Assembly: GCA_902385655.1 (NCBI GenBank)
Contig: CABMGO010000006.1
Span: 10,329-74,328 of the forward strand
Source of the DNA: an uncultured archaeon
GTDB lineage: Archaea; Nanobdellota; Nanobdellia; Pacearchaeales; GW2011-AR1
Reading direction: 5' to 3'
DNA: 64,000 nt
Of this stretch, positions 427 to 62,188 are shown piece after piece (position 1 is the stretch's first letter; every line of letters begins with the position of its first letter). The position numbers and the translations under genes are program-made. Under the pieces are notes generated by a model that was given only the letters and a program-made list of their open reading frames with translations, was not told the DNA's origin and searched no databases.

Positions 427-1260
427 TCACCATCTTTCAGAGCATCGAAATTTTGAGCCTCCAGAAGAATATTTCAAAGCACTACAGTCTAAATATTCTT
501 TACGATAGGTAAATACTCTTTTTCCCTTTCCAGCCCTACAAAAGCTTTCCTCAAGAGAACAACCAAAGTTTACAGGAACAGAATATTTAGCGGAAAAAGT
601 TTTTGCCTCGCCAATTAACTTATCAATCTCTTCCCTACTTAAAGCCAAGTCATCACGACAGTTTCCCTGCCTTACCAATCTTAAAAAATTAATTGAAGGA
701 TTACAAAAAGAATTTTGTTTACTTGCAACATATTGAAAAGTTTCTTCTAGATAATCCTTTGTCGGAGACATGCAAACAAAATTAAAGTTAAATGGAATTT
801 TATTTTCCAAAACCTCATTAACTGTCTCATCAAATTCTTCAAATGCTTGATCATTTCTAGTAACTTGAGCATGAACTTTAGAATTACCATATAAAGAAAA
901 ACCAATTCTGTCAACGAACTGTCGACCGCATAAAGAAAGAATAGATGGTATGTGCCTTTCTCGATAATAAACTCCAGAAGACAAAACCTCTGTTTGTTTC
1001 CCTCTTATTTTCGCCTCTCGTAAAAATTCTAAAATTAATGGATGCATAAATGGCTCTCCTCCGGAAAAACGAACCATTTCAAATTGAGAATTTTCATCCA
1101 AAACTTGCTTCACTTCTGGCAGAGTCAGTAAATAAATCTGTTCAGAACTACTCCGTTCATCATCAGCGCCTTGTAAATCCCATTCAAAAAGTGCACAACT
1201 AGAACAATGGACACATCTATTCCCGCAGTTGTTTGTAACTTCAATAGTTAGCTCGGCCAT
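427..1260 (-). CDS. radical SAM domain protein
   Basis: N-terminal CGNRCVHC (CxxxCxxC cluster motif), SGGEP motif, extra C-terminal cysteines; ATG at 1260. Confidence 0.8.
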   Translation of the reverse strand: MAELTIEVTNNCGNRCVHCSSCALFEWDLQGADDERSSSEQIYLLTLPEVKQVLDENSQFEMVRFSGGEPFMHPLILEFLREAKIRGKQTEVLSSGVYYRERHIPSILSLCGRQFVDRIGFSLYGNSKVHAQVTRNDQAFEEFDETVNEVLENKIPFNFNFVCMSPTKDYLEETFQYVASKQNSFCNPSINFLRLVRQGNCRDDLALSREEIDKLIGEAKTFSAKYSVPVNFGCSLEESFCRAGKGKRVFTYRKEYLDCSALKYSSGGSKFRCSERW

Positions 1261-1430
1261 TTTGCGAAACTTCTCAAAGTTAATTTATAATACAGAAGTT
1301 CGCAAGGTTGCATTTTTGAACGAAGTGAAAAGCAACCGCTATCAGATTTTTTTGACCAAACTGAAAGTTTGGAACCAAAGAAAAAACGTCCTTTATTTAA
1401 AGAGATATTTTTCAAGTTAGAGTATACCAT
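1248..1430 (-). CDS. small ORF (60 aa) running through repeat R1; coding status doubtful
   Basis: Starts 1 nt after DP2 stop (TAA-A-ATG), ends 13 nt inside radical SAM gene; similar sORFs in other repeat copies. Confidence 0.2.
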   Translation of the reverse strand: MVYSNLKNISLNKGRFFFGSKLSVWSKKSDSGCFSLRSKMQPCELLYYKLTLRSFAKWPS

Positions 1431-1431
1431 T
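1261..1431 (-). repeat. structured intergenic module, copy R1 (three hairpins; fills DP2-stop to radical-SAM-ATG gap)
   Basis: Hairpin 1 1262-1274/1294-1305, hairpin 2 1307-1336, hairpin 3 1356-1372 flanked by T7/A-rich arms; homologous copies at 34082, 36175, 54170, 62029. Confidence 0.7.
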
Positions 1432-9107: not shown

Positions 9108-9296
9108 TATTTGTTATCAGAATCGAACTTCGATTCCGAGTAAAAAGGCTTTCCATTTTAATTTAAATATAGAAAAGAGCTCTTTGCGAGTAGGGTCTGG
9201 GCGTTTTTTCTGGCTTCGCTAACCTTCTTTACTTCGAAGAGCAGGAAAAACGGAGTTTCTAAATAATTTTATAAACTCTCTTTTTCTTTTCTAATT

Positions 9297-15456: not shown

Positions 15457-15824
15457 GTTGTTTAAACAACCTTATTTATAAATGTTTCCATTATTTGTCC
15501 AAAAGGGTCAAAAAAAGCCTATTTTTGTACCAAAAAAAGCCTATGTTTTAGTTATCAACATGAGATTTATCTTCGGGCTTTTATGGATATTCATGCTAGA
15601 AGGACTATTGTTTTAAACAACCGGCAAACACCTAAAACAATAGCCCACAAACAGCCCAAAACACCAAAAATAGTCAAAAAAAGAAGCTTTTTCAATAAAG
15701 TCTGTTTAAACCCGTTTGTCCAAGTCTTAGCAGGGTGTTTAAACACATCATTATCGTCGGTAACTTTTTATGAAAACATTTATAAACGAACACTATCTTA
15801 AACACTAAAATGAGGTTTAAACAC
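15457..15824. promoter_or_regulatory. cluster of GTTTAAAC-centred palindromes / half-sites (putative operators or iterons)
   Basis: GTTGTTTAAACAAC 15457-15470, 15610-15621, 15704-15711, GTGTTTAAACAC 15735-15746, 15797-15805, 15815-15824; plus ATTCGTTTAAACGAAT at 14644-14659; direct repeat CAAAAAAAGCCTAT at 15509 and 15531. Confidence 0.5.
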
Positions 15825-16115
15825 AAATTTTTCACAGCAGGAGTAATTTCTATAGGATATTATCTTGCTTCTTTATTCCTGAACATTGTTCCTTGCCAAA
15901 TTTCGCCAAATGTTCCTAATCCACAATACATATGGTCAACATGCACTTTAAATCCGGATACTTTTATTTCATCCGGAGTCCAAAAATTATTCTTCGGGTT
16001 CAGTTCGAGACTAACTGATGCAACTCTTTTGGCGCTAGTACTTCCATTTCTTATAGCTATTATAGTATTAAGTCTTAAATTCAAAAAGCATGGCAAAAAG
16101 GAGGAAACCAACTAA
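15810..16115 (+). CDS. small membrane protein
   Basis: 101 aa with two hydrophobic helices; stop overlaps next ATG (TAATG). Confidence 0.5.
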   Translation: MRFKHKFFTAGVISIGYYLASLFLNIVPCQISPNVPNPQYIWSTCTLNPDTFISSGVQKLFFGFSSRLTDATLLALVLPFLIAIIVLSLKFKKHGKKEETN

Positions 16116-16318
16116 TGGCAAAAAAAGAATCAGGTTTCAGCTTTTCAAATTTTGTAGCATGGGCAACTAGTGTTCTTGTTTCACTGGCAGTCGGATCAGG
16201 CATGATCAACAAGACTTTGTCAATTCCATTTGTACCTTCAATCATAACAATAGTTGCAGGTTGGATAGTAGTTGTTGGCACAATTGTTTCAATAATCTTG
16301 GCAGTGTTTAACCGATAG
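16115..16318 (+). CDS. small membrane protein
   Basis: 67 aa, two hydrophobic helices, coupled to preceding ORF. Confidence 0.5.
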   Translation: MAKKESGFSFSNFVAWATSVLVSLAVGSGMINKTLSIPFVPSIITIVAGWIVVVGTIVSIILAVFNR

Positions 16319-16455
16319 TCTTTTAATCAAATAATTTGCTTAGAACCGCTTATATATAACTTAGGTCAGCTTAGTGCACAAAATCGCCGGTACCAAAGAA
16401 GTTAGTAGCGCCAAAACACCTAAATTCTTAAAAACTATAACTTCTTGATTTTAAA

Positions 16456-16665
16456 ATGAGTTCACAAATCAGAAACTGTCGTCCAGAAGAATGTCAGTAC
16501 TGTACTCAGCAAGATTCAGACGGTAGCTGTTTTTATACAAGTTCTTTAATTGGTCAGGCCGGTAAGGGGCCACTAGCTATTTCAATAGGTATACCTTGTT
16601 TCTATAACCTTCCTCCACAAGAAAGTTCAGCTCTTAAAAATCCTTTAGAAATAAAAGCAAATTAA
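16456..16665 (+). CDS. Cys-rich small protein
   Basis: 69 aa with CRPEECQYC...C...C. Confidence 0.4.
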   Translation: MSSQIRNCRPEECQYCTQQDSDGSCFYTSSLIGQAGKGPLAISIGIPCFYNLPPQESSALKNPLEIKAN

Positions 16666-16704
16666 TATATAAATCCTTAAAAACTCACAAATTTTTCAAA
16701 AAAG

Positions 16705-17097
16705 ATGGATCCGCTACCTGAGTATATTTGTCCGATTAGAAAACTCAAACTTTCTTTAAATCATTCTGTTGGTGAAAGATGCTATTTAGGTTCAGCTGGA
16801 AATATTTGCAATGCTTCTGGAAAACTTTGCGATATTCTTGAAGCACATGAACTTGCTCAAAGCTCAGATCATTCTCGCCTAATGGAAGTAGGGATAGAAT
16901 CTGATCCTTCTTCAGGCAATCCGGTCCCGTACGTTCGACCTGTAAGATCTTCACAAAGCCAACCAAAGTGCACAACTTCTCCACATATAACAACTTCTCC
17001 ACATATAACAACTTCTCCGCATATAGATTCCACATCGCCAGGTTATAACCCTTATAAAAAAGGAGGAGATAATCCCGATCCAAGAAAAAGGTATTAA
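16705..17097 (+). CDS. Cys-rich repeat protein (4-Cys module plus TTSPHI x3 tandem repeat)
   Basis: YICP-x13-C-x9-C-x5-C...ELAQS module; SQSQPKCTT; 18-nt tandem repeat in frame. Confidence 0.5.
   Translation: MDPLPEYICPIRKLKLSLNHSVGERCYLGSAGNICNASGKLCDILEAHELAQSSDHSRLMEVGIESDPSSGNPVPYVRPVRSSQSQPKCTTSPHITTSPHITTSPHIDSTSPGYNPYKKGGDNPDPRKRY
16972..17025 (+). repeat. 18-nt tandem repeat x3 (ACAACTTCTCCACATATA), in frame
   Basis: Units 16972-16989, 16990-17007, 17008-17025 (one A to G change in unit 3); encodes TTSPHI x3. Confidence 0.9.
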
Positions 17098-17098
17098 G

Positions 17099-17473
17099 AT
17101 GAGAGACAAAAGAAACCCCTATGACTTAAATGATTATAGGCCAATGCAACTTCGTCCAAATCTCTATGGCTTATCAAGTTCTACACAATCCTCTTCACCA
17201 AGCCAACCTAAGTGCAAACTAAAAGAGGAACAACCAAAAACATATTTTTGCCCATATACTGGTTCTTCTGTTTCAGGAGTTGCAGCCAGACATTGCAATT
17301 ATTCTAACTTAGATGATTTTACTTGCAGTCATACTGGTGATGCTTGCGTAGCTAAGGGGGGACTTGAAGAATTTGCACAAAGTCAAGCTAAGTGCACAAC
17401 TCCCTTAATTTTAGCAAGAAGCCAAGGTAGAAAAATTTATGAAACTCCGCGAGGCACTGATTGGCCTTGTTAG
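17099..17473 (+). CDS. Cys-rich repeat protein, paralog of 16705..17097
   Basis: YFCP-x13-C-x9-C-x5-C...EFAQSQAKCTT aligns with upstream ORF; start 1 nt after its stop. Confidence 0.5.
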   Translation: MRDKRNPYDLNDYRPMQLRPNLYGLSSSTQSSSPSQPKCKLKEEQPKTYFCPYTGSSVSGVAARHCNYSNLDDFTCSHTGDACVAKGGLEEFAQSQAKCTTPLILARSQGRKIYETPRGTDWPC

Positions 17474-17586
17474 TTAAAAAGTCTTCTAAAACCGCAAAAT
17501 TTATATACTTTATTCCAATAAGGTTATTAAATCGTTTCGATAAGGGAACCCTTACAGGAAGAAAATACCCTTAGTATACAAATAAA

Positions 17587-18054
17587 ATGGTGAAAAAAGA
17601 GAGAAAAGCACAGCTTAGTAAGAAAGATGTTAACAAAGATAACCTAAGTGCACAAAAGAAGTTCCTTTATCATGGCTCCAATAAAGAGATCAAATTATTA
17701 ATTCCAAAACAACCTTCAGATCCAAAAAAAGAAAATTCCCTTAAAGCCGTTTATGCAACAGACAGGAAAGATTATGCCTTAGCCATGGGTCTAACTAACC
17801 AAAAAGGCTCAACTAGTTTTATAACTTTTAATCCTGTTAAACTCCATTTTGTTAGGGGCAAGCCCAAAATGAAATTTATTTACTTGCATTATCTTTCTCC
17901 AAAAAATTTCAAAAAAAACTCAGAAAACCAATATCTTTCTTTTAAACCTGTAGAGTCCATATTAATTGAAAAATACTTTCCTTATGAACTTAGGCACCTT
18001 TGGACAAAGTCTAACAAAAAAGAATTAAATAAATTCCTTAAAAATAAAAAATGA
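17587..18054 (+). CDS. hypothetical protein with possible H-Y-E ADP-ribosyltransferase-like motifs
   Basis: FLYHGS, KAVYATD, ENQYLSF spaced like the PARP/ART H-Y-E triad; stop overlaps recombinase ATG (ATGA). Confidence 0.25.
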   Translation: MVKKERKAQLSKKDVNKDNLSAQKKFLYHGSNKEIKLLIPKQPSDPKKENSLKAVYATDRKDYALAMGLTNQKGSTSFITFNPVKLHFVRGKPKMKFIYLHYLSPKNFKKNSENQYLSFKPVESILIEKYFPYELRHLWTKSNKKELNKFLKNKK

Positions 18055-18836
18055 TCCATCAGTCTACAACCAAAATTCCTAAAGTAGCAATTTATTCAAG
18101 AGTTTCTACTGAAGAGCAGGCAAGAGAAGGTTTGAGCGTGGATGCTCAGATTGAAAAGTGTGAGGCGTACTGTAAAGCCAGAGGTTGGGAAATTTATCGA
18201 GTTTACAAAGATGCAGGTTTTTCAGCAGGCAGTTTGGACAGGCCTTCCATGGAGTTAATGCTTAGAGATGCAAATGAGTCAAAGTTCAATATAATTCTTG
18301 TTTATAAAATCGATCGTTTTTCAAGAAAGTTAAGAGATTTAATTTTAGTCTTAGAGAGCCTAAAAGAAAAAGACATTAATTTTACTTCAGTCACAGAACA
18401 AATCGATACTACTTCTGCTATGGGTGAAGCCTTCTTTCAAATTATCGGAGTTTTCGCACAACTAGAAAGAGGAATGGTGAAAGAGAGAGTTGAACTGGCA
18501 TTTGATAAAAAAATTGGTATGGGGGAATCTCTTTCTCGGGCCCCTCTTGGTTATGTTTATGAAAACAAAAAATTAGTTCCAGACCCTCAAAATTCTGAAA
18601 AATTAAAAGAGCTTTTTGAAATGGCAGAAATGGGAATAAGTTACAAAGTTATCTGCGAAAAATTTAACATACAACCCTCAACATTTTACTCAATAATCAA
18701 AAATCCTGTTTATACTGGAAAAGTGAAATACAAGGGAGAGCTTTACAAAGGATCGCACAAACCTCTCATTTCTGAAGAAGTTTTCAATAAATTAAATTCT
18801 CTCGAAACTAGAAATGGATCAACAAGCTCGGAATAA
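18051..18836 (+). CDS. serine recombinase (resolvase catalytic domain plus recombinase domain)
   Basis: AIYSRVSTEEQ catalytic Ser region, DRFSR, then SRAPLGY...YTGKV recombinase-domain pattern. Confidence 0.85.
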   Translation: MIHQSTTKIPKVAIYSRVSTEEQAREGLSVDAQIEKCEAYCKARGWEIYRVYKDAGFSAGSLDRPSMELMLRDANESKFNIILVYKIDRFSRKLRDLILVLESLKEKDINFTSVTEQIDTTSAMGEAFFQIIGVFAQLERGMVKERVELAFDKKIGMGESLSRAPLGYVYENKKLVPDPQNSEKLKELFEMAEMGISYKVICEKFNIQPSTFYSIIKNPVYTGKVKYKGELYKGSHKPLISEEVFNKLNSLETRNGSTSSE

Positions 18837-19419
18837 AATTTTAGAAAGAGACAAGTTCTGTTGTCAAAAGTGCGGTTTTGCAGAAGAATCAGAACTAGAA
18901 ACTCATCATATTACTCCTCAAGTTTTAGGTGGAGAAGAAAAAGAAGAAAATTTAATCACTCTCTGTTCGATTTGTCATCATTATGCTCCAGATTCTGCAA
19001 AGGAATTCAAAATATATCTTTCTGAAAAACTAGACTGGAAAATTCTAGAAACCTTTAGGAGGTCAAATCGTTCAATTTCCAAAAAAACAAGACAAGGTAT
19101 GGAAAGAAATATCTCTGAAGGAAAAGTAATTTCCCGAGCACCTTTGGGATACAAAATCATAAACAAGGAACTAGTCATTGATCCAGAAAAATCTGAGCAG
19201 TTGAAATCCATTTTCAAAGAATTCTCAGAAACTCAAATTAGTCTTACGCAACTTGGAAAAAAACATGGTTTTACTACTTCAGGCATAAAAAAACTGCTAA
19301 TGAACACCTCCTACCTCGGAAAGGTTAAATTTGCAGATCATGAAAACGACGGGACTCATCCAGCAATTATTGATCAAGAACTTTTTGATAAAGCGCAAAA
19401 TAGGTTTCTAAACATTTGA
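18814..19419 (+). CDS. HNH endonuclease fused to a serine-recombinase-type DNA-binding (recombinase) domain
   Basis: CQKCGF...HHITP...GG...NLITLCSICHH (HNH), then ISRAPLGY...NTSYLGKVKF; overlaps upstream recombinase gene by 23 nt. Confidence 0.7.
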   Translation: MDQQARNKILERDKFCCQKCGFAEESELETHHITPQVLGGEEKEENLITLCSICHHYAPDSAKEFKIYLSEKLDWKILETFRRSNRSISKKTRQGMERNISEGKVISRAPLGYKIINKELVIDPEKSEQLKSIFKEFSETQISLTQLGKKHGFTTSGIKKLLMNTSYLGKVKFADHENDGTHPAIIDQELFDKAQNRFLNI

Positions 19420-21030
19420 TTATTTTTTAACTACTAATTTTCTAAATTGCTGATATTTTGTTTCTGGAAATTGATTTATTTCTAAAGAGTTCACTAATGC
19501 ATGTGGTGCTTCTTGTGTTGAAGGCACCCATCCTGACTGCGCACCACATTCTCCTCTAAATACTCCATATTGATTGCTTGTCTGAACTATGTTCCGAATT
19601 ATCTGATATGGCGTTCCAACAATATATGCTCCCCTTACTTGCTCAACTTTTCCATTTCTATACAATCTAAAAATCTTTGAAGGATATGTCTCGAAATGGC
19701 TTCTTTCTGGAATAGTTAGACCTCCTGCAGATCCTTCAAAAATTAATCCATAAGGTTCATTCTGCTCTGCACAAATTCTTAGCAAATTTTCCTTAAGCTG
19801 ATCCAGAGGTACTTCATTAGAAGAACGTACAATTAAATTACTCATTCTGGCTACAGGATCTTTTGATTGCTCAGATCTTGCATGACCATTTGAATTTGTT
19901 CTGAAAAATCCTGCACTTTCTCTAGAGTGCAAGTAATCTCTTAAAACTCCTCTTTCGATCAGTCTAACTCTTTGAGCTCTCGCTCCCTCATCATCATAGG
20001 GATAGTATCCGTCAAGTCTCTTTATAGTCGGATCATCATCTACACTAATAAATTCTGGAGCAACTTTTCTTCCAAGCTTACCTAAAAATAAACTCACCTT
20101 GTCTTCTTTTTGTCCATTCTGCCCTGTCTCCGTTTTCATGCTAGTCCCTTCTAGAGCATGGCCTATCATTTCGTGCCATAAAACTCCATGATTTTCCGGG
20201 TCTAATATCGCAGGGTAACTCCCATTTTTTTGAAGTGGAGAAGCAATTATCTCCGCAAGTTCTTCTCTAAGTTCTTCTCCCAAATTGACTATTGCTCGAT
20301 AATGCTCAGGCCTAACCATTCCATCTGGAAAGAAATTCCTTCCATGTTGGATAACCCATCCATGAGCATCTATTGCTTCAACGGAAACTCCGACCATACT
20401 TCTTAGAGAATCATAATAAATTCTCGCACCCTCAGAGTTTACAATATGTCTCCCTTCTCTTCTAACTCTCATAGTAATATCTGCATCAACTAGGTTTTTT
20501 CCCTCTTGCCAAATTTCTGCGGATGCTGCTTTCAACATTTTTTCAACTTCTGCTAAATCTACACTTATTCTTTTTTCAGGCCCGGAGTATTTATCGCCGA
20601 CTTCCTTTGTAAAAATTCTATATTTTTCTCTTTGATTTTTACTTCCAACCGCCATCAAATCCCGCGTGCTTTGATCTTGAACACAATCCCAAAATGCAGA
20701 ATTAGACGCAAGCCAGATTTCATGCATAGAAGATTTTATATCCAAATCACAGGGCAATTCAAAAGGCCAACTTCCCATCCCTCCAGAGTCATAGCCTCCC
20801 ATTCTTACTTCAACTCTTCCTGGGCAAACATGACGAGGGTCATAGTCTCTTGTAACTAGTCCTCCATTTTCTATCCACAAAGAATAGCTCTCAATTTCCC
20901 TTGCTGCAAGTGAAGCGAAAAAAGGACGAAATGTTACAGTTCTCTTTCCTGAATTTCTAAAACTATGTTGTGCCTTTAAAACTTTTTCTAAACCTTCCTC
21001 AAGAAAATTAAATATTTTTCTGTTTGCCAC
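19420..21030 (-). CDS. TldD/PmbA-family metalloprotease-like protein
   Basis: 536 aa; HEMIGHALE (HExxxH), C-terminal GECG..GWVP motif typical of TldD; apparent GTG start. Confidence 0.7.
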   Translation of the reverse strand: MANRKIFNFLEEGLEKVLKAQHSFRNSGKRTVTFRPFFASLAAREIESYSLWIENGGLVTRDYDPRHVCPGRVEVRMGGYDSGGMGSWPFELPCDLDIKSSMHEIWLASNSAFWDCVQDQSTRDLMAVGSKNQREKYRIFTKEVGDKYSGPEKRISVDLAEVEKMLKAASAEIWQEGKNLVDADITMRVRREGRHIVNSEGARIYYDSLRSMVGVSVEAIDAHGWVIQHGRNFFPDGMVRPEHYRAIVNLGEELREELAEIIASPLQKNGSYPAILDPENHGVLWHEMIGHALEGTSMKTETGQNGQKEDKVSLFLGKLGRKVAPEFISVDDDPTIKRLDGYYPYDDEGARAQRVRLIERGVLRDYLHSRESAGFFRTNSNGHARSEQSKDPVARMSNLIVRSSNEVPLDQLKENLLRICAEQNEPYGLIFEGSAGGLTIPERSHFETYPSKIFRLYRNGKVEQVRGAYIVGTPYQIIRNIVQTSNQYGVFRGECGAQSGWVPSTQEAPHALVNSLEINQFPETKYQQFRKLVVKK

Positions 21031-32872: not shown

Positions 32873-34081
32873 TCATTCGTATCTTAATGCTTGAACTACG
32901 TTTATCTTTGAGGCCCTTATAGCAGGTAATACTCCTGAAACTGCTCCCGTTATTGTTGCAAATAAAATACAACCAATAAACAAGGAATAAGAATAATGTG
33001 GAGATAAGAATCCCCATCCTAAATTTACCAAGATAGTATTCGCAATTGAAGTAATTAAAAATCCCCATCCTACTCCAATAACTCCTGCAACAAATCCTAA
33101 AAATCCCGATTCAAATAAGAAAATATTAAATATTTCCGAATTCTTAGCACCAATCGCCTTTATGATTCCGATTTCTTTAAATCTCTCAAGCACAGAAGTA
33201 ATCATCGTATTAGAAGTATTTATTGCGGAAACTAAAACCGAGATCAATGCAATCAAAATTACAAAACCAATCACGATATTTAATGCACTTGTATATGACT
33301 TAACTAGATCTTCAAAAGACTGGACATAAAAATCTTCTTTTCCCTCTTTAAGGTTTCTAGAATTTCTCAAACTTCTTGTAATTGCATCGACAGTCGAAGG
33401 TATTTTTGTTTTGTCCACTTTTGCAACTATCCAAGAGAATCCCTTTATATCGGAGTATAATTTTTTCATACTGTCTGCAGTGAGATACACATTTGAATCA
33501 TCTTGGGGATTTCCTACCGGTGCATAAAAACCAGCCACTCGAAAATCTTTGCCCTCTATCGTGATTTTATCATTTAGGGATAAACCTTTTGAAAATATTT
33601 TGTTGTCCAATTTGTAGTCATACCCTAATGTAACCATTCCATCATCGCCTCTTTGTAATTCTCGTCCACTTTCAATACGGATGTCGGTGATTTGCATGAC
33701 TAACGGATTTTGTGGATCGTATCCACTTACAAAAATATATTTTTGCTCATCTCTTTTTTCAACTTTACCTATTTTTATATAAACTCCTGTTGCACTATAA
33801 ACTCCATTTGATTTTTCAACTGCACGAACATCTTGTTCTGTCAAATAAAAAGTATCATCTAATCCAAAACCTCCCATGCCTTTTGGTTGAATCATCACTT
33901 TATCAGAAGAGCCTCCTGCAGCAACAGAATCTATGTAATCATAAAGTCCCCAACCAAAACTGATAAAAATAAATATCGTAGATATTCCTAAGAAAATAGA
34001 AAGAATAGTCAATAGGCTTCTTGTTTTTCTATGTGCAATATTATTCAAAGAATATTTTATGTTTTCTAAACTAAGTGCCAT
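32873..34081 (-). CDS. ABC transporter permease, MacB/FtsX type
   Basis: N-terminal TM, large extracytoplasmic domain, C-terminal FtsX-like 3-TM module with RFKEIGIIKAIGA. Confidence 0.8.
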   Translation of the reverse strand: MALSLENIKYSLNNIAHRKTRSLLTILSIFLGISTIFIFISFGWGLYDYIDSVAAGGSSDKVMIQPKGMGGFGLDDTFYLTEQDVRAVEKSNGVYSATGVYIKIGKVEKRDEQKYIFVSGYDPQNPLVMQITDIRIESGRELQRGDDGMVTLGYDYKLDNKIFSKGLSLNDKITIEGKDFRVAGFYAPVGNPQDDSNVYLTADSMKKLYSDIKGFSWIVAKVDKTKIPSTVDAITRSLRNSRNLKEGKEDFYVQSFEDLVKSYTSALNIVIGFVILIALISVLVSAINTSNTMITSVLERFKEIGIIKAIGAKNSEIFNIFLFESGFLGFVAGVIGVGWGFLITSIANTILVNLGWGFLSPHYSYSLFIGCILFATITGAVSGVLPAIRASKINVVQALRYE

Positions 34082-34232
34082 TTGTGAAACTTCTCAAATT
34101 TAATTTAGAGTAAAGAGGTTCGCAAGTTTGCGACTTTTGCGTAAAGCAAATGAATCGACTTGTTCGATGCTTTATGGAGCAAACGCTTACCTTATTGACA
34201 ACTACGACTGAGAGGAGTTTAGTGTTTGTCAT
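34071..34232 (-). CDS. small ORF (53 aa) spanning repeat R2; coding status doubtful
   Basis: MTNTKLLSVVVVNKVSV...; starts 1 nt after upstream permease stop (TAA-A-ATG), ends 11 nt inside the next gene. Confidence 0.2.
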   Translation of the reverse strand: MTNTKLLSVVVVNKVSVCSIKHRTSRFICFTQKSQTCEPLYSKLNLRSFTNGT

Positions 34233-34233
34233 T
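34082..34233 (-). repeat. structured intergenic module, copy R2
   Basis: Hairpin 1 34082-34094/34114-34125 (two GU pairs only in plus-sense RNA); further hairpins GTTTGC...GCAAAC and ATCGA-CTTGT-TCGAT. Confidence 0.65.
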
Positions 34234-35466: not shown

Positions 35467-36174
35467 TTATTTTCTCCTAGTAACTTTCTCTAGCTGGCCA
35501 TCTCGGATCCAGTAAACAATTTCAGCATGTTTTTGTGCCAGTTCGGGCGAGTGGGTTACCATAATTATTGTCCTTCCTTTTTTATGAAGCTCATCAAGAA
35601 ATTTCATAACTATATCTCCAGTTTTAGTATCCAAATTTCCTGTAGGTTCGTCCGCTAAAATAACTTCAGGGTCATTAGCTAAAGAACGAGCAATTGCAAC
35701 TCTTTGTTGTTGTCCTCCAGAAAGTTGGTTAGGATAGTGATCCATTCTGTCTTGAAGTTCAACGAGTTTCAATAAGCTTTCAGCTTTCTTTTCTCTTTCT
35801 TCAAAACTAACCCCTTGGAATAACATCGGGAGCATAATATTTTCTTTTGCAGTTAGGTTAGGAATTAAATTAAAACTCTGAAAAATAAATCCAATTTTTT
35901 TCCCTCTTATTTGCGCAAGGTCGGATTCATGTAACTTTGAAATATCATTATTATCTAAAAAAATTTTTCCATATGTCGGGACATCCAAGCTACCTACAAG
36001 ATTCATTGCAGTAGATTTTCCCGAACCAGAAGGACCCATAATTGCAACGAATTCTCCTTTTTTTATGTCCAAAGTCAAGTGATCGAGTGCATGGACTCTC
36101 GCTTGGCCCATCTTATATATCTTGTGAACATCTCTTAACCTAATAATTACTTCTGATTTTTCTCTCTTTTTCAT
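35467..36174 (-). CDS. ABC transporter ATP-binding protein (MacB/LolD type)
   Basis: Walker [10 protein letters not shown], signature LSGGQQQR, Walker B ILADEP; ATG 36174 (track start 36201 is a TTG inside hairpin 1 of R3). Confidence 0.9.
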
Positions 36175-36285
36175 TTTGACAATTTCCGAAGGAGTTGGCA
36201 AGGTTACAACTTTATGGCGTAACCGCTATCGGATTTTTTCGATCGAACCCTAGGTTCGAAATCATTCGAAAAACGTCCTATCAGC
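36175..36285 (-). repeat. structured intergenic module, copy R3 (in a divergent intergenic region)
   Basis: Short hairpin 1 36176-36182/36195-36201 with UUCG loop in gene sense, hairpin 2 GGTTAC/GTAACC, CGCTATC box, hairpin 3 36243-36259 inside TTTTTCGA/TCGAAAAA outer stem. Confidence 0.65.
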
Positions 36286-38604: not shown

Positions 38605-38656
38605 CGGTCAAACGGGCAAGATTTAAGCTCTTGCTTTTGTCACGGCAGGGTCAAGC
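38605..38656 (+). pseudogene. tRNA-Leu(TAA) internal fragment
   Basis: 38605-38633 is identical over 29 nt to 38782-38810 of the intact tRNA (D loop to anticodon stem); similarity then decays. Confidence 0.6.
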
Positions 38657-38767
38657 TTTTTCAACAAATAGTTTTCTAAATTCAAAAAGAGCAGAAAGCG
38701 AGCAGAATCCGTCCTTCTAAATTATCCAATAGTTTTTTATAGTCTTGTTTAACCCTATATTTTATCT

Positions 38768-38850
38768 GTGGGGGTGCCGGAGCGGTCAAACGGGCAAGAT
38801 TTAAGCTCTTGTGGCTTTTGCCTTCGGGGGTTCGAATCCTCCCTCCCACA
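38768..38850 (+). tRNA. tRNA-Leu (anticodon TAA)
   Basis: Acceptor GTGGGGG/CTCCCAC, anticodon stem CAAGA/TCTTG, loop TTTAAGC, long variable arm, T arm GGGGG-TTCGAAT-CCTCC, discriminator A. Confidence 0.9.
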
Positions 38851-38927
38851 TTCATTTTCCAATTCTAACGGTGAATTTTTTCACCTACTCTAATAAAAAT
38901 AAACAAATAAAAAATAAATTTTCTTAA

Positions 38928-39572: not shown

Positions 39573-39664
39573 GCACTGGTAGTATAATGGTAGTATAGTT
39601 GGTTTCCAAGTATTAAATTGTACGAAACGACCAATTGGCTCGGGTCCGATTCCCGACCGGTGCA
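39573..39664 (+). tRNA. tRNA-Gly (anticodon TCC) with a 21-nt intron
   Basis: Acceptor GCACTGG/CCGGTGC, D arm GTAT-AATGGTA-GTAT, anticodon stem GTTGG/CCAAT, loop TTTCCAA followed by 21 extra nt (39610-39630), T arm TCGGG-TCCGATT-CCCGA. Confidence 0.7.
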
Positions 39665-40701
39665 TGAAAAAGAAAATGAAGAACAAACTGAACGCATTTT
39701 ATAACAAGCACTACCAGCTTTCTCTAATTTTCCCAGCAGTGGTTTTAATTCTCTCTTTAATTTTTATAGGTCATAACTATTTTTCTCATGGCGATATCCT
39801 TAATCGTGATGTCTCTTTAACTGGTGGAACATCTATAACTTTTGCATCAAACCTTCCTGTAGAAGATGTTCAAAAAGCACTTTCAAGTTCAATTTCCGAC
39901 GTAGAGGTAAGGAGCCTTTCAGATAACACAGGAATTCAAACTCATCTTTCAGTAATTACTTCTCAGAATTTAGATACTATAAAACCTATTTTAGAAAAGT
40001 ACTTGGGTTATTCTCTCACTGACCAAAATTCAACAATCGAGTCTACTGGATCAAGCCTCAGCAAAGATTTTTACAAACAATTACTTATTGCAGTTCTTAT
40101 TGCTTTCTTTTGGATGGCTGCAGTCGTTTTCATTATTTATGCTTCAAAGAGAAGCGCAAAAGTTTGGGCAATAATTATTAATCTTCTTCTAGGATTTTTT
40201 ATGGGTTCATTCTTTTTCAATTTACCAATAATTCTTTCAATAATAATTCTGGTTGCAATAGCAGGATACTTAATTTATATTTATATAAAACACTCCGTTC
40301 CTAGCTTCGCAGTTATGCTCTGTGCCTTCTTAGATGTAATCATGACTCTCGCAGTAGTCGATCTAACTGGAATGAAAATTTCTGCAGCAGGAATTGTTGC
40401 ATTCTTAATGCTTATTGGATATTCTGTAGACACTGATATTCTTCTGACTACAAGAGTTTTGAAAAGACACGGAACTTCTGTCAATCATGAAATCTTTGGA
40501 GCATTCAAAACAGGAATGACTATGACGTTGACTGCTCTCGCTTCAGTGGCTGTAGCTCTTATTTTTGTTTATTCTTACAAAACTTCTCTTAATCAAATTT
40601 TTGAGATTTTATTAATTGGCTTATTCTTTGACATATTCAATACTTGGATAACAAATACTGCTTTAATTAAATGGTTCGTAGAGAGGGACAGCTTCAAATG
40701 A
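39664..40701 (+). CDS. secF: protein-export membrane protein SecF
   Basis: N-terminal TM, DVSLTGGTSITF, C-terminal 5-TM bundle; first ATG shares its A with the tRNA-Gly discriminator (alternative ATG 39676). Confidence 0.8.
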   Translation: MKKKMKNKLNAFYNKHYQLSLIFPAVVLILSLIFIGHNYFSHGDILNRDVSLTGGTSITFASNLPVEDVQKALSSSISDVEVRSLSDNTGIQTHLSVITSQNLDTIKPILEKYLGYSLTDQNSTIESTGSSLSKDFYKQLLIAVLIAFFWMAAVVFIIYASKRSAKVWAIIINLLLGFFMGSFFFNLPIILSIIILVAIAGYLIYIYIKHSVPSFAVMLCAFLDVIMTLAVVDLTGMKISAAGIVAFLMLIGYSVDTDILLTTRVLKRHGTSVNHEIFGAFKTGMTMTLTALASVAVALIFVYSYKTSLNQIFEILLIGLFFDIFNTWITNTALIKWFVERDSFK

Positions 40702-53146: not shown

Positions 53147-54169
53147 TCATTTTAACTCCCTTTCATATTCTTTGGAAACCCTTTCCCAATCAAATTTCAC
53201 ACTATACTTTCTAGCTCCATCCCCCATCTTTTTTCTTCTAGTTTTGTCCATTTTCAATAAGGTAGCCTTTTCAACAAACTCTTCAAAGTTGTTTACAACA
53301 AATCCTGTTTTATTGTTGATAATAACCTCGGGAATAGATCCTTTGTTATACCCAATACTCGGTTTCCCGCACGCACCTGCCTCGACAAAAATTAAACCAA
53401 ATCCTTCCCATTCAGATGCTGAAACGAAAAATGAACAACTCTGATAATTTCTAACTAAATCTTCTCTCGAGACTCTGCCTAGAAATCCAACAGGAGCATT
53501 AATTCTTTCAGTCAAACTTTTTAACTTTTTCTCTTCTAAACCGTATCCGATAATTCTCAATGGAAAATTTATTTTTTTACTTAATTTTATCAGCTGGTCT
53601 ACTCTTTTATGTTTTTCAAGTCTCCCAACATAAAGCATATAGGCTCCGTCTTTCTTTATCGGCTTAAATTCTTCAGATACTCCGAGCAGGATAACTTTTA
53701 CTTTTCTGGCACCCATATTTTTGAGTTCTCCTGCCAAATAATTCGAGATAGTGATAATCTTATTTTCTCTCATGCCTCTTTGGAAATATTTAGAAGCCAG
53801 TTTTCTAAATATATTCTTTGTTGGTGGAGAGCCTAGCCATATATAATTTATTTTTTCATTTTTCCTAAACGCAGAAGATAATCCTCCATGAAATACTAGA
53901 ACTTTATCGAATGAAAATCTCTTATCTAGCTCCTTGAATTGATCTTGCAGAATTCTCATCTTTTTGAAGTATCCAAAGTCTGTAACTTTTCCTGTAAATA
54001 ACTTCTGAAGATTTAGTTTAACAAATTTAAAATTCTTCTCAGGAATGTTAGTCTCTCCTGCTAAAATAAAAACCTCATGCTTTTTTCCAAGCCTCTTCGC
54101 AAGCTCATACATCACTACATCTGCTCCTCTGCCCTGCAGAAATGTATCGTTTATAAAAGCAATTTTCAT
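53147..54169 (-). CDS. family 4 (GT-B) glycosyltransferase
   Basis: EGFGLIFVEAGACGKPSIG; ATG 54169 (track start 54193 is a TTG inside the leader hairpin). Confidence 0.8.
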   Translation of the reverse strand: MKIAFINDTFLQGRGADVVMYELAKRLGKKHEVFILAGETNIPEKNFKFVKLNLQKLFTGKVTDFGYFKKMRILQDQFKELDKRFSFDKVLVFHGGLSSAFRKNEKINYIWLGSPPTKNIFRKLASKYFQRGMRENKIITISNYLAGELKNMGARKVKVILLGVSEEFKPIKKDGAYMLYVGRLEKHKRVDQLIKLSKKINFPLRIIGYGLEEKKLKSLTERINAPVGFLGRVSREDLVRNYQSCSFFVSASEWEGFGLIFVEAGACGKPSIGYNKGSIPEVIINNKTGFVVNNFEEFVEKATLLKMDKTRRKKMGDGARKYSVKFDWERVSKEYERELK

Positions 54170-54447: not shown

Positions 54448-54448
54448 T

Positions 54449-60663: not shown

Positions 60664-62028
60664 TTATAATCCGAACATTCCCCTCATTGCAGGGTTCATA
60701 TCGACCGCATGCTGTTGAGCAATATTTTGGTATAATTGATATAAGATCATGATTGCAAGTAAAACTGCTGTTCCTCCAACAAGTGCTCCCATTAAATCTG
60801 CAAAACTAGCAAGAAGACCTACTGCTGCTCCGCTCATGACTGTTAAAGGTGTAACATACCTATTCAAAATAGATTCTAATATTCTCTCATCTTTCCTAAA
60901 TCCTGGAATACTTAATCCAGAATGCAAAATATTTCTAGCCTGGTTCGAAGCGTCTTGTCCAGAAGTTTTCATCCAGAAATAAGAAAACATTATCGAGAAA
61001 CCAACATAGAAAATAATGTGCCCTACTGCCTGAACTGCGTAAATCCATCTGAAGCTACCAGTAACTAAATACTGGAGTAATGGTGTTGAGTGAATCCAAT
61101 ATGCAAAACCTGAAATTGGTTGTCCATTAGAAAATCCTCCTAAGAAAGTAGCATGTCCTACCGCATTTTCAACTAAAGAACCAATCAATTGAATATTTGC
61201 TGCAAGAGCAGAAACTAAAATAACTGGAAGAACTCCCGTATAGAAAAATTGTAGTGGCCATCTTATTCCATATCCTCTTATTCTATCAAATGATAGAGGT
61301 ATTTCTACTTTAAGAGACTGTGTCCAGACCACTGCTAAGAAAAGTGCAGCTGTAATTAAAATAGAGAATAATGCCAATGCAAAACCTGCCGAGTCTCCAG
61401 AGATTATAGACGAGAATAAAACCAAGAATTTACCGGAAGGTTCGAATCCTCCAGAAGTTCCTAAAAACTGAAATAACTGCGCAAATAATCTCCAACCGAT
61501 ACCTGCCGCGATGAAAAGAGAAGTTCCTGATCCAAATCCCCATTTCTGTACAACATCATCCATAAAAACAATTAATAAACCGCCAAGGAAAAGTTGTAAA
61601 ATAACTAGAAATTCGAATCCTGCCTTAGCTTCTAATCCTCTCATCATTACATAGATTATTGCTTCAAAAACAATGAATACTATCGTAAGTAATTTTTGTA
61701 CTGCTTGGAAATATTTTTTCCCTTCCGGGTCTTTCAAATCTATTCTGATTATTTGTGCTCCAACAAGAAGTTGTAAAATCATAGAAGCTAAAACAATGGG
61801 GCCGATACCTAAAGAAATAATCGAACCAAAATCCGTTCCAAGTAAGATCGCTAAATACTGGAATCTTGACAATGCCGCACTAGCCAAGCCATAAAGAGGA
61901 ATATTTGCTAGAACAAAAAAAGCAGTAAGCACAATTAAAGACCATTTAAGTTTAACACCAAAAGATAATTTTTTTTCCTCTGGTTTTTTTACTTCAGGCA
62001 AATTGTGCAATATATCCATGAAAGCCAT
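60664..62028 (-). CDS. secY: preprotein translocase subunit SecY
   Basis: 454 aa, 10 TM, archaeal SecY pattern; downstream of rpl30-rpl15. Confidence 0.9.
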   Translation of the reverse strand: MAFMDILHNLPEVKKPEEKKLSFGVKLKWSLIVLTAFFVLANIPLYGLASAALSRFQYLAILLGTDFGSIISLGIGPIVLASMILQLLVGAQIIRIDLKDPEGKKYFQAVQKLLTIVFIVFEAIIYVMMRGLEAKAGFEFLVILQLFLGGLLIVFMDDVVQKWGFGSGTSLFIAAGIGWRLFAQLFQFLGTSGGFEPSGKFLVLFSSIISGDSAGFALALFSILITAALFLAVVWTQSLKVEIPLSFDRIRGYGIRWPLQFFYTGVLPVILVSALAANIQLIGSLVENAVGHATFLGGFSNGQPISGFAYWIHSTPLLQYLVTGSFRWIYAVQAVGHIIFYVGFSIMFSYFWMKTSGQDASNQARNILHSGLSIPGFRKDERILESILNRYVTPLTVMSGAAVGLLASFADLMGALVGGTAVLLAIMILYQLYQNIAQQHAVDMNPAMRGMFGL

Positions 62029-62160
62029 TTTACCAAACTCTCCTAAAATTATTTAATTTGAGAGTTGGTAAGGCAAAAAATGCGAAGCATTGACTGCCGC
62101 TAACGGGTTTTTTCGATCGAGCCAACAGCTCGAAATCATTCGAAAAACGCCCTACTTTTA
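62029..62160 (-). repeat. structured intergenic module, copy R5 (directly upstream of secY ATG)
   Basis: Hairpin 1 62030-62042/62060-62071, hairpin 2 with AATGC-GAA-GCATT, CGCTAAC box, hairpin 3 62117-62133 inside TTTTTCGA/TCGAAAAA outer stem. Confidence 0.7.
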
Positions 62161-62188
62161 GTTGATTTATATTACTCACTTTAAACAT
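62030..62188 (-). CDS. small ORF (52 aa) spanning repeat R5; coding status doubtful
   Basis: MFKVSNINQLKVGRFSNDFELLARSKKPVSGSQCFAFFALPTLKLNNFRRVW; stop then A then secY ATG (TAA-A-ATG). Confidence 0.2.
   Translation of the reverse strand: MFKVSNINQLKVGRFSNDFELLARSKKPVSGSQCFAFFALPTLKLNNFRRVW

What the first reader, a model, noticed from the sequence alone, without database searches (positions are those of the whole stretch)
1261..1431. Covarying multi-hairpin module that exactly fills stop-to-ATG gaps (repeat family, archetype copy)
Seen: the whole spacer between the PolD-DP2 stop (1432-1434) and the radical-SAM ATG (1260) is one structured module. It recurs at 34082-34233, 36175-36285, 54170-54448 (three tandem units) and 62029-62160. 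Every copy has the orientation of its flanking minus-strand genes and ends 0-1 nt before an ATG (plus strand reads CAT-T-TTGCGAA).

Gene-strand layout: GGRCGTTTTT, an inner hairpin, an A-run, a G(A/T)TAGCG box, a variable hairpin 2 (often with a GCGAAGC or CGAAG mini-loop), a CTTGCGAA-type hairpin 1, then A-ATG.

Hairpin-1 arms:
- here: TTGCGAACTTCT / AGAAGTTTCGCAA (1262-1274 with 1294-1305)
- 34082-34125: TTGCGAACCTCT / AGAAGTTTCACAA
- 62030-62071: TTACCAACTCTC / GAGAGTTTGGTAA
The arms differ at several positions between loci, yet they stay complementary and keep the same single bulged T.

Inner hairpin:
- here: CCAAACT / AGTTTGG (1356-1372)
- 36243-36259: TCGAACC / GGTTCGA
- 62117-62133: TCGAGC / GCTCGA

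Compensatory change with conserved geometry argues for selection on structure rather than on a peptide or a simple binding word. The hairpin-1 loop is AT-rich and contains TTATAAAT centred about 26 nt before the ATG. That is the spacing expected for the TATA box of a leaderless archaeal mRNA. T5-T7 runs flank the other hairpins.

Inference: this could be a portable terminator-plus-promoter or translational-coupling cassette, a MITE-like element, or a family of small structured RNAs. I do not know a described archaeal element with this architecture.
Basis: partly seen in the sequence, partly recalled or inferred. Interest (0 to 1): 0.8.

Follow-up and report, generated by a model that had tools for sequence, protein, structure and literature searches.

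The report
Hairpin repeat element capping start codons
A 100-170-base, three-hairpin repeat has been copied onto the start codons of unrelated genes in a few small-genome (DPANN-like) archaea, and almost every copy carries a short open reading frame that stops on or next to the gene's start codon, which probably keeps the host gene translated.

Summary
Base pairing is conserved by compensatory change: 92-93% of cells are paired and 19-29 pairs change on both sides, against at most 13 in the slid controls.

The module is an insertion. Three related lineages have the PolD-DP2 stop and the radical-SAM ATG 1 nt apart. Two other related genomes give three more filled/empty site pairs.

The family occurs at about 25 loci in about 34% GC archaeal MAG contigs, always in front of unrelated genes. 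It is absent from Rfam, phage, plasmid and viral collections.

In 23 of 26 units with an intact 5' side, the displaced original start codon opens a 29-60 codon frame. That frame runs through all the hairpins and usually stops on the regenerated start codon (ATGA) or 1 nt before it (TAAAATG). The peptide is not conserved, and the same bases are read in different frames in different copies.

Best reading: a REP/RPE/MITE-like mosaic repeat that tolerates translation and preserves termination-reinitiation coupling. How it spreads is unknown. The promoter-in-loop idea fits only some copies, and the terminator idea is not supported.

The parts
1261..1431 (-). Archetype copy (type A). It fills the gap between the PolD-DP2 stop (1432-1434) and the radical-SAM ATG (1258-1260).
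   Evidence: (95 bits). Relatives have a 1-nt gap here.
1248..1430 (-). Mini-ORF of 60 codons. Its ATG (1428-1430) lies 1 nt after the DP2 stop (TAAAATG). It reads through P1, the box, P2 and P3, and stops 10 nt past the radical-SAM ATG, out of frame with that gene.
   Evidence: It was called as a protein in the public collection (P0017).
1344..1391 (-). P1: outer stem GGAcgTTTTTT / AAAAAAATCT enclosing the inner hairpin CCAAACT (1366-1372) / AGTTTGG (1356-1362).
1336..1343 (-). Near-invariant single-stranded box GATAGCGG (family consensus GWTAGCGG).
1306..1337 (-). GCAACC.
1262..1305 (-).
34082..34233 (-). Type B copy between two FtsX-permease paralogues. Its mini-ORF (34071-34232, 53 codons) starts 1 nt after the upstream stop.
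36172..36281 (-). Type A copy in the divergent region between rpoN (+, 36346) and the ABC ATPase gene (-, ATG 36172-36174). P3 has mismatches. There is no start codon, and the frame has an internal stop.
   Evidence: 105 bits
54170..54448 (-). Three tandem type B units between AglB/STT3 and a GT1 glycosyltransferase. They give chained mini-ORFs at 54346-54447 (33 codons), 54261-54359 and 54166-54264 (32 codons each; both stops overlap the next ATG as ATGA).
   Evidence: (D4, D5)
62026..62188 (-). Type A copy in front of SecY. Its mini-ORF (62030-62188, 52 codons) stops with a TAA built into the P3 3' arm, 1 nt before the SecY ATG (62026-62028).
   Evidence: (107 bits); P0025
62210..62217 (-). 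Native-type TATA box TTTATAAA. It starts exactly 29 nt before the mini-ORF ATG, which is the geometry of this genome's leaderless promoters.

Best explanation
This is a lineage-specific family of mosaic, hairpin-rich repeat elements. It is comparable to REP/BIME, RPE and MITE-like elements, and it has been copied onto the start codons of unrelated genes.

Anatomy of a copy:
- The mobile core is optional P1 + GWTAGCGG box + P2 + P3 + AAA.
- The 3' end of the core abuts a complete start codon and the intact gene.
- The original start codon stays on the 5' side, with its leaderless promoter or its stop-start junction. It now opens a 29-60 codon frame.
- That frame runs through all the hairpins. 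In most copies it stops on the new start codon (AAAATGA) or 1 nt before it (TAAAATG).

Inferred mechanism:
- Ribosomes that start at the old site translate through the element and melt P3.
- They terminate at the junction and re-initiate on the host gene (termination-reinitiation coupling).
- A 100-170 nt insertion therefore does not silence the gene in a genome that has almost no Shine-Dalgarno sites and has tightly coupled or leaderless genes.
- The hairpins are kept by selection on nucleic-acid structure, not on the peptide. Two causes are possible: only structured copies propagate, or the RNA fold gates re-initiation.

Shown: the repeat family, the insertion, the conserved structure, the open frames and the junction geometry. 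Inferred: that the frames are translated, that coupling occurs, and how the element spreads.
For: Insertion:
- DP2 stop and radical-SAM ATG are 1 nt apart in L001 and L004, and the two genes overlap in L005. Model R1 finds no copy in 47 kb of these relatives.
- PHP|Exo_endo_phos overlaps as ATGA in L030/L031 but holds a 158-nt copy in L028.
- X|ABC is empty in L030 and filled in L028. MarC|CCG is filled in L030 and empty in L028.
- In all four comparisons the core's 3' end (..CGCAAA or ..TGTAAA) abuts the orthologous start codon exactly.

Spread:
- About 25 loci lie in front of unrelated genes. These include radical SAM, FtsX, ABC, GT1, SecY, NusA-like, Dus-like, PheT-like, oxidoreductase, GyrA, TrkA, NUDIX and LigT genes.
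- Modules are shuffled between copies.
- Near-identical variants sit at different loci in different genomes: c62 before SecY, L029a before GyrA, and L037b.

Structure:
-.

Open frame:
- 15 of 18 copies have an ATG-to-stop frame spanning the element.
- All four further copies found by the model alone also have an open frame. One of these, L029a, is cut by the contig end.
- In 22 mini-ORFs (2,895 nt) the reading frame has 0 stops. The other two frames have 90 and 80.
- 17 of 18 cores have an open frame, against 8.8 +/- 1.9 in dinucleotide shuffles (maximum 15 in 2000) and 11 of 18 on the reverse strand.

Junction:
- Of 24 mini-ORFs, the stop begins at +1 in 12 (ATGA or GTGA overlap) and at -4 in 7 (TAA-A-ATG).
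- A P3 arm with a built-in TAA goes with genes whose 4th base is G (6 of 7). CGCAAA arms go with ATGA genes (13 of 17). Fisher p = 0.009.

Original start retained:
- The mini-ORF ATG follows the upstream stop as TAAAATG, TGAAAAATG or TAATG.
- Alternatively it has a native TATA box at -29, as in c62, L006a and L025.

Peptide not selected:
- GGCAGTCAATGCTTCGCATTTTTTGCC is read as AAVNASHFLP in L012, L017, L006a and others. It is read as GSQCFAFFALP in c62, L029a and L037b.
- The inner-hairpin peptides are unrelated (FEPRVR, FELLAR, SKLSVW, SNFQFD, LKSTIS) while the pairing holds.
- The peptides have no Pfam hit.

Host context:
- SD-like motifs precede only 10 of 60 genes. Many co-directional gene pairs have -4, -1 or 0-5 nt spacing.
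- In Haloferax and E. coli, coupling by termination-reinitiation needs overlaps or very short distances. About 20 nt almost abolishes it (PMC10666635).

The three copies without a frame are the ones with no gene to feed or no coupled context. c36 lies in a divergent promoter region. L009 and L021 abut tRNA 3' ends on the opposite strand.
Against: - There are no expression data. Translation of the mini-ORFs and re-initiation are inferred.
- Five mini-ORFs end 4-13 nt past the gene's ATG rather than on it.
- Copies found through the protein search are biased towards ORF-bearing copies.
- Copies share ancestry, so the statistics overstate independence.
- No transposase, reverse transcriptase or autonomous parent was found. 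This covers the window proteins scanned (39 proteins), the precomputed Pfam lists of the related loci and about 233 kb scanned for solo or split ends. Mobility therefore rests on presence/absence and on mosaicism only.
- Both strands fold equally well. G-U versus A-C counts do not single out a strand (22 vs 14). An RNA-level role for the hairpins is therefore not demonstrated.
Confidence: 0.6

Rival explanations
1. Portable terminator-plus-promoter cassette. T-runs in P1 and P2 stop upstream transcription. A TATA box in the P3 loop, about 26 nt before the ATG, starts a leaderless mRNA for the downstream gene.
For: - This genome does use leaderless promoters with a sharp geometry. A TTTAWAWA 8-mer starts at -29 in 9 of 22 genes.
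- c1 has TTATAAAT at -30. c62 and L029a have ATTAAATA at -29.
- The commonest P2 variant is a small hairpin followed by T6 (ATGCTTCGCATTTTTT).
Against: - P3 loops are only 3-4 nt in L006a/b, L009, L019a/b, L021, L024 and L025, and 8-9 nt and GC-rich in the c54 units, so they hold no TATA.
- In the 16 long-loop copies no 8-mer matches the consensus perfectly. Half match with <= 1 mismatch, at positions scattered from -29 to -37. Controls at internal ATGs score 15%.
- Sense-strand T>=6 runs occur 56 times in 53.6 kb of coding sequence, as composition predicts. T6 is therefore not a strong terminator here.
- A terminator inside the element would make the conserved open frame pointless.
Confidence: 0.15
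2. A family of genuine small-protein genes (29-60 aa) whose product is the selected function. On this view the hairpins are incidental to the coding sequence.
For: - The frames are open with well-placed starts and stops.
- Public annotations call many of them hypothetical proteins.
- Type B N-termini look similar (MTNTKL..VV.K.DS), with some synonymous variation at the Val codons.
Against: - Identical nucleotides are translated in different frames in different copies.
- Radical replacements coincide with compensatory base-pair changes.
- Length is highly variable. Frames shift within a subfamily (L006a, c54u1) yet stay open.
- The peptides have no Pfam hit.
- Only about 15 true clusters exist among 1.84 billion representatives.
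- Pairing statistics far exceed the controls.
Confidence: 0.08
3. A cis-regulatory leader RNA (riboswitch- or attenuator-like) or a small RNA gene family placed before particular genes.
For: Multi-helix structure conserved by covariation, with a near-invariant single-stranded GWTAGCGG box.
Against: - The downstream genes share no function.
- Copies are present or absent between close relatives at the same junction.
- Copies occur in tandem (c54, P0016) and next to tRNA 3' ends, with no gene to regulate.
- No Rfam match.
Confidence: 0.07
4. Mode of spread (a): a non-autonomous partner of a hairpin-recognising HUH/Y1 enzyme, of the IS200/IS605-PATE or REP-RAYT type. It would insert as single-stranded DNA next to a short target (..ATG) without duplication.
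For: - The hairpins are kept by compensatory change and the modules are mosaic.
- A conserved box lies just 5' of a hairpin, as GTAG does in REPs (that comparison is from my own knowledge).
- The 3' end is precise, and tandem arrays occur.
Against: - No Y1/TnpA, TnpB or RAYT family was found among 39 window proteins or the precomputed Pfam lists of the related loci.
- The segment between the old ATG and P1 is locus-specific, so the 5' end is not a fixed transposon end.
- No long element shares these ends in 233 kb.
Confidence: 0.2
5. Mode of spread (b): copy-paste by microhomology-mediated template switching, at the DNA or the cDNA level. Synthesis leaves the recipient gene at a GGA 15-40 nt into the coding region and copies a donor core (GGAC...CGCAAA-ATG). 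It returns at the recipient's start codon, which duplicates the stretch from the ATG to the GGA. Selection keeps only the events that regenerate an intact gene.
For: - In the X|ABC pair the left segment is ATG-AATAAC-AAAACGGAAGGA. The empty site reads GTG-AAAACTGAAGAAGGA.
- A GGA lies in the gene within 3 nt of the matching offset in 4 of 13 copies, against 1.6 expected (permutation p = 0.07).
- L029b shares GGACT at that offset.
- The tRNA-adjacent copies sit on CATTTT.
- This model needs no dedicated enzyme.
Against: - Left segments are not significantly more similar to their own gene's 5' end than to other genes. Ranks were scattered, and Fisher's method applied by hand to the ranks gives p about 0.45.
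- Type A left segments resemble the type B 5' terminus slightly more than gene starts do (p = 0.018). That favours a real, decayed element end instead.
- The GGA test is only suggestive.
Confidence: 0.2

Closest known systems
Rickettsia palindromic elements (RPE)
   Same: Both are 100-150 bp palindromic repeats in a reduced genome. Both are compatible with translation, so insertion does not break expression, and neither has an associated transposase. RPEs are described as inserting in frame into many unrelated genes (review PMC10969869).
   Different: RPEs sit inside host ORFs and become part of the host protein. Here the element forms its own out-of-frame mini-ORF at the gene start and ends on a regenerated start codon. 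The host is archaeal. No sequence relationship was tested.
REP/BIME elements and their RAYT transposases (enterobacteria, pseudomonads)
   Same: Both are mosaics of a few hairpin modules within operons. Pairing is kept by compensatory change, a short conserved motif lies 5' of a hairpin, and copies occur in tandem. The comparison is from my own knowledge.
   Different: REPs are extragenic and untranslated, and usually lie after stop codons. They are not tied to start codons. RAYT genes accompany them, and none was seen here.
Prokaryotic MITEs, including archaeal ones (Sulfolobus, Halobacterium, Haloquadratum PATEs)
   Same: Both are short, non-coding-sized, multicopy elements with secondary structure and with presence/absence between relatives. 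The archaeal examples are listed in PMC10969869.
   Different: This element has no terminal inverted repeats (5' GGAC.., 3' ..CGCAAA), no fixed target duplication and no related autonomous IS. Precise placement at start codons with a bridging ORF is not mentioned in that review, which holds no occurrence of 'start codon'.
Translational coupling by termination-reinitiation at overlapping gene pairs (ATGA, TGATG)
   Same: The junctions at both ends of the mini-ORF have the -4 overlap or +1 spacing that such coupling needs (PMC6728339, PMC10666635).
   Different: That is a property of ordinary gene pairs. Here it seems to be built into a repeat element. Coupling has not been measured for these junctions or in DPANN archaea.
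Hairpin-forming repeat elements of organelle genomes (e.g. sponge mitochondrial RHEs)
   Same: Both are small hairpin repeats that invade compact genomes repeatedly (title and abstract of PMC2800124).
   Different: They belong to different hosts and have a different architecture, with no start-codon rule. I know this case only from the abstract.

Membership tests
Any Rfam family | Match to a curated covariance model at its gathering score | tested here: not met
   Nothing at any copy in the window or in 8 related loci. An E-value search of 1200-1480 gave only far-sub-threshold chance hits.
MITE | Terminal inverted repeats | tested here: not met
   The ends are GGAC(K)TTTTT.. and ..GTTTCGCAAA, which are not complementary. 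The inverted repeats are internal hairpins.
MITE | Fixed-length target-site duplication | tested here: inconclusive
   The start codon is present on both sides. Any longer duplication is variable and not statistically supported.
MITE | Related autonomous IS sharing the ends | tested here: inconclusive
   None in about 233 kb of window plus loci. No complete genome was available.
REP/BIME-RAYT | Extragenic, untranslated palindromic units | tested here: not met
   23 of 26 units with an intact 5' side lie wholly inside an open frame that starts at an ATG.
REP/BIME-RAYT | RAYT (Y1 HUH) gene in the genome | tested here: inconclusive
   Not among 39 window proteins scanned with Pfam or the precomputed Pfam lists of the flanking genes. 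The rest of the genomes was not seen.
IS200/IS605-derived PATE | Insertion 3' of a fixed tetra- or pentanucleotide without duplication; ends shared with a TnpA/TnpB element | tested here: inconclusive
   The 3' junction is always at ATG or GTG. The sequence upstream of the start in empty sites is not conserved (TAAA, AACT, TAAG, AATT). No TnpA or TnpB was seen.
RPE-like in-frame palindromic element | Inserted in frame inside a host ORF and translated as part of the host protein | tested here: not met
   The mini-ORF is out of frame with the downstream gene and ends at its start.
Termination-reinitiation coupled gene pair | Stop and start overlap by 4 or 1 nt, or are a few nt apart | tested here: met
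   Of 24 mini-ORFs, 12 have the ATGA/GTGA overlap and 7 have TAA-A-ATG. At the upstream junction the mini-ORF ATG closely follows a stop codon (TAAAATG, TAATG or TGAAAAATG) in c1, c34, L019a, L019b, L024, L025 and L006b and in c54u1, L015 and L037b.
Termination-reinitiation coupled gene pair | Downstream translation depends on upstream translation | not testable with these tools
   Needs reporter assays or ribosome profiling.
Archaeal leaderless promoter (for the P3-loop idea) | TATA box about 8 nt long starting near -29 from the ATG | tested here: inconclusive
   Native genes: 9 of 22 exactly at -29. Element long loops: 8 of 16 within 1 mismatch, at -29 to -37. Short-loop copies have none.

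The most novel reading that the evidence does not exclude
This would be a previously undescribed kind of selfish element in DPANN-like archaea, one that is specialised for start codons. It would place itself, by an unknown hairpin-dependent enzyme or by template switching, so that the old start codon drives a throw-away reading frame through the element. A stop codon would sit on a regenerated start codon, making the insertion translationally transparent. The P3 arm would even co-vary to supply a TAA when the host gene cannot supply TGA.
Probability: 0.35. Interest if true: 0.8.

Novelty: new variant of a known kind. Interest (0 to 1): 0.62.

Why it matters
Small-genome archaea have almost no intergenic space, so how selfish DNA persists in them is an open question. 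This family suggests one answer. The element sits on start codons and carries its own bridge of translation, so operon coupling and leaderless initiation survive the insertion.

If this is confirmed, three things follow:
- It would be a natural, portable translational-coupling cassette.
- It would be a clear case where selection on nucleic-acid structure and selection for an open but meaningless frame act on the same bases.
- It would be a warning for annotation. Dozens of 'hypothetical small proteins' in these MAGs are probably element read-through frames.

It also provides presence/absence markers for strain-level studies of these uncultured lineages.

Tried and rejected
- Common regulon: rejected. 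The downstream genes are unrelated.
- Known RNA family: none.
- Viral, phage or plasmid carriage: two pattern scans of IMG/VR and blastn against the phage and plasmid records found nothing.
- Strand assignment from wobble pairs: inconclusive, 22 G-U against 14 A-C. Both strands fold equally well.
- Long target duplication of the gene's 5' codons: an anchored alignment against non-cognate genes was not significant. GGA microhomology was only suggestive (p = 0.07).
- Shine-Dalgarno supply by the GGAG in the P3 3' arm: SD-like motifs are rare in this genome (10 of 60 genes), so this was not pursued.
- T-runs as terminators: no depletion of sense T-runs in genes.
- Autonomous parent, or solo P1 or P3 ends: none in 233 kb.
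- Orthologous comparison of the window with element-bearing contigs: no shared genes among the fetched loci.
- The exhaustive profile search returned three long repeat proteins (P0038, P0047, P0050). They are unrelated low-complexity matches.
- C/D-box, H/ACA and K-turn readings of the P1 internal loop were considered by eye and dropped. The 3' strand of the loop has only one base.
Full report
**What is there.** The window is 34% GC and archaeal. It encodes PolD DP1/DP2, Orc1/Cdc6, AglB, RpoN and SecY. The nearest named relative of its radical-SAM protein is a Pacearchaeota MAG at 43% identity. On the minus strand, the 171 nt between the DP2 stop (1432-1434) and the radical-SAM ATG (1258-1260) hold, in order:
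- a long stem P1 (1344-1391) that encloses a small hairpin;
- a single-stranded box GATAGCGG (1336-1343);
- hairpin P2 (1306-1337);
- hairpin P3 (1262-1305), stacked directly on P2;
- AA and then the ATG.

**Is it a repeat, and is the structure real?**
- The repeat finder recovers the families.
- I aligned nine copies with MAFFT and wrote the four helices by hand. 93.2% of cells pair and 19 of 37 pairs change on both sides. Slid controls gave at most 5 such pairs, and 0 of 500 shuffles reached the observed values.
- A covariance model built from that alignment was run over the window with filters off. It finds the three type A copies (95-107 bits), the three tandem 54xxx units (E <= 3e-4) and the 34xxx copy (E 0.33), and nothing else.
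- With 23 copies from several genomes, 29 of 36 pairs show double changes (137 cells) and 92% of cells pair. That alignment is fitted to the model, so it leans towards the structure.
- Single-sequence folding is unremarkable (z about -2.6) and is equally good on the opposite strand.
- G-U versus A-C counts (22 vs 14) do not settle which strand folds.

**Two 5' types and a mosaic.**
- Type A copies (c1, c36, c62) carry P1.
- Type B copies (c34 and the three c54 units) lack P1. They begin ATGACAAACACTAAACTC...GTTGTCAA instead.
- Both types share GWTAGCGG + P2 + P3 + AAA-ATG.
- P1, P2 and P3 variants are combined freely between copies and genomes.

**It is an insertion.**
- Relatives with 54-62% identical radical-SAM proteins keep the same gene order. 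In L001 and L004 the DP2 stop is 1 nt from the radical-SAM ATG (TTTTTTAAAATGGAAC in L004), and in L005 the two genes overlap.
- The model finds no copy in 47 kb of these relatives.
- A gapped DNA pattern required ...TTCGCAAAA but not the TG. It was scanned over GTDB species genomes and JGI metagenomes. It returned 10 distinct genuine copies, all on about 32-35% GC contigs, plus obvious chance hits on high-GC bacterial contigs.
- Model searches of those contigs, and of contigs reached through the peptide search, added more copies. The total is about 25 loci.
- Two related genomes carry a syntenic MarC-CCG-x-PHP-Exo_endo_phos operon and an X-ABC pair. These are L028 and L030/L031, the latter being GCA_037140195.1 and GCA_964645175.1.
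- PHP|Exo overlaps as ATGA in L030 and holds a 158-nt copy in L028. X|ABC is empty in L030 and filled in L028. MarC|CCG is filled in L030 and empty in L028.
- In every comparison the core's 3' end abuts the orthologous start codon to the nucleotide.
- Downstream genes are unrelated housekeeping genes.
- Extra copies in contigs fetched for a different copy occur about once per 17 kb. The window has one locus per 13 kb.

- Each gene-adjacent copy is spanned by a short open frame.
- The frame's ATG takes the place of the gene's original start. In operons it follows the upstream stop as TAAAATG, TAATG or TGAAAAATG.
- In promoter-proximal copies it lies 29 nt downstream of the start of a native TATA box. 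c62 has TTTATAAA at 62210-62217, and L006a and L025 are alike. This is the sharp geometry of this genome's leaderless promoters (9 of 22 genes at exactly -29).
- The frame runs through the hairpins. It ends with TGA overlapping the gene's ATG (..TTC GCA AAA TGA, 12 of 24), with a TAA built into the P3 3' arm 1 nt before the ATG (7 of 24), or 4-13 nt later (5 of 24).
- In 22 such frames (2,895 nt) there is no stop. The other two frames hold 90 and 80 stops.
- 17 of 18 cores have an open frame, against 8.8 +/- 1.9 in dinucleotide shuffles.
- The TAA-bearing arm goes with genes whose fourth base is G, where AAAATGA cannot form (6 of 7). The CGCAAA arm goes with ATGA genes (13 of 17). Fisher p = 0.009.

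**The peptide is not the product.**
- The same P2 nucleotides are read as AAVNASHFLP in some copies and as GSQCFAFFALP in others.
- The box is read as DSG, VSG, PIAA or PLAA.
- The inner-hairpin peptides are unrelated while the pairing is intact.
- Frames shift within subfamilies and still stay open.
- No Pfam family matches.
- An exhaustive profile search of 1.84 billion cluster representatives finds only about 15 true clusters.

**Copies without a frame.** There are three.
- c36 lies in a divergent promoter region and has a damaged P3.
- L009 and L021 lie tail-to-tail against tRNA genes. Their ..CGCAAAA meets the tRNA's terminal ..CA, so it again reads AAAATG.
- These copies show that placement is not mechanistically bound to translation starts. 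They also suggest that the open frame is kept only where a gene depends on it.

**Mechanism proposed.**
- This genome has few SD-like motifs (10 of 60 genes). Many gene pairs have -4, -1 or 0-5 nt spacing.
- In Haloferax and E. coli, coupling by termination-reinitiation collapses once the stop-start distance reaches about 20 nt (PMC10666635; PMC6728339).
- An untranslated insert of 100-170 nt would therefore cut a gene off from its source of ribosomes.
- A frame that begins at the old start and stops on the new one restores the chain. It also melts P3, which ends 2-3 nt before the start codon.
- This step is inference. No expression data exist.

**The promoter/terminator idea.**
- The archetype's TTATAAAT sits at -30, close to the native -29. 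c62 and L029a have ATTAAATA at -29.
- Many copies have P3 loops of 3-9 nt with no TATA. In long loops the best 8-mers are imperfect and scattered from -29 to -37.
- T>=6 runs are as common on the sense strand of genes as composition predicts, so the T-runs say little about termination.
- A promoter role for the long-loop subfamily remains possible. It is not the common denominator of the family.

**How it spreads is unresolved.**
- No transposase-like, TnpB-like or reverse-transcriptase family appears among the 39 window proteins scanned or in the precomputed Pfam lists of genes flanking other copies. A serine recombinase with an HNH-bearing neighbour at 18-19.4 kb belongs to a separate island.
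- No long element shares the ends.
- The 13-46 nt between the old ATG and P1 are locus-specific. In the X|ABC pair they clearly derive from the gene's own first codons: ATG-AATAAC-AAAACGGAAGGA against GTG-AAAACTGAAGAAGGA.
- A GGA lies at the matching offset in the gene in 4 of 13 copies (p = 0.07).
- Over all copies, however, the left segments are not significantly closer to their own gene. They resemble the type B 5' terminus slightly (p = 0.018).
- Two models fit the data about equally: hairpin-guided single-strand transposition, and microhomology-mediated template switching followed by selection.

**Comparison with known elements.**
- The nearest analogues are Rickettsia palindromic elements, REP/BIME mosaics and MITEs.
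- It fails defining features of each. It has no terminal inverted repeats. It is not extragenic and untranslated. It is not an in-frame part of a host protein.
- Four full-text searches found no description of a start-codon-associated, frame-bridging repeat, in archaea or elsewhere. That is weak negative evidence.
- I rate it a new variant of a known kind (structured non-autonomous repeats) with an unusual placement rule.

Noticed in passing
window 15500-19420: Probable integrated element. It holds a serine recombinase (Resolvase + Recombinase, 18051-18836) followed by an ORF with HNH and Recombinase domains (18814-19419). Upstream lie small ORFs (16705-17473) that carry a 41-nt repeat at 16937, 17181, 17361 and 17617.
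   Followed up: partly
window 38605-38633 and 38783-38811: An exact 29-nt duplicate of the interior of tRNA-Leu(taa) lies 178 nt upstream of the gene (38767-38851). It looks like an att-site remnant of an integration event.
   Followed up: no
window 39573-39664: Rfam calls a 92-nt tRNA (50.8 bits) that ARAGORN misses. It probably contains an intron. Its last base is the A of the ATG of the following SecD/F-like gene (39664-40701).
   Followed up: no
window 9199-9257 (+): Solo hairpin GGGCGTTTTTTCTGG...CAGGAAAAACGG just after tRNA-Ser. It has the same T-run/A-run stem style as P1 and a GCTTCGC motif. The family model does not hit it.
   Followed up: partly
window, 22 genes with free upstream regions: Very regular promoter geometry. 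A TTTAWAWA 8-mer starts exactly 29 nt before the ATG in 9 of 22 genes, which implies mostly leaderless mRNAs. SD-like motifs precede only 10 of 60 genes.
   Followed up: yes
window 62245-62841 (-): An ORF of 198 codons with no Pfam hit lies between ribosomal protein L15 (63083-63628) and SecY. In archaeal ribosomal-protein clusters these two genes are usually adjacent (from my own knowledge).
   Followed up: no
L012 versus L017 (same secretion-ATPase-like gene in two related genomes): Both genomes carry a type A copy on the same start codon. The two copies have unrelated 5' segments and different P3 loops, and they differ by one compensatory change in the inner hairpin (TTCGAAC/GTTCGA versus TTTGAAC/GTTCAA). 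This points to recurrent insertion or to conversion at one site.
   Followed up: partly
P0016, P0030, P0037 (L036 4666-4905); L037 7309-8165: Tandem or nested copies are fused into single frames of 79-88 codons. In L037 one LigT-like gene has a copy on its own start codon and another on the start codon of the next gene.
   Followed up: partly
L005 15757-15813: In a relative without the element, the FtsX-FtsX junction holds a 57-nt spacer with a GGAGG 11 nt before the ATG and a short ATG-initiated frame. The model does not hit it.
   Followed up: no
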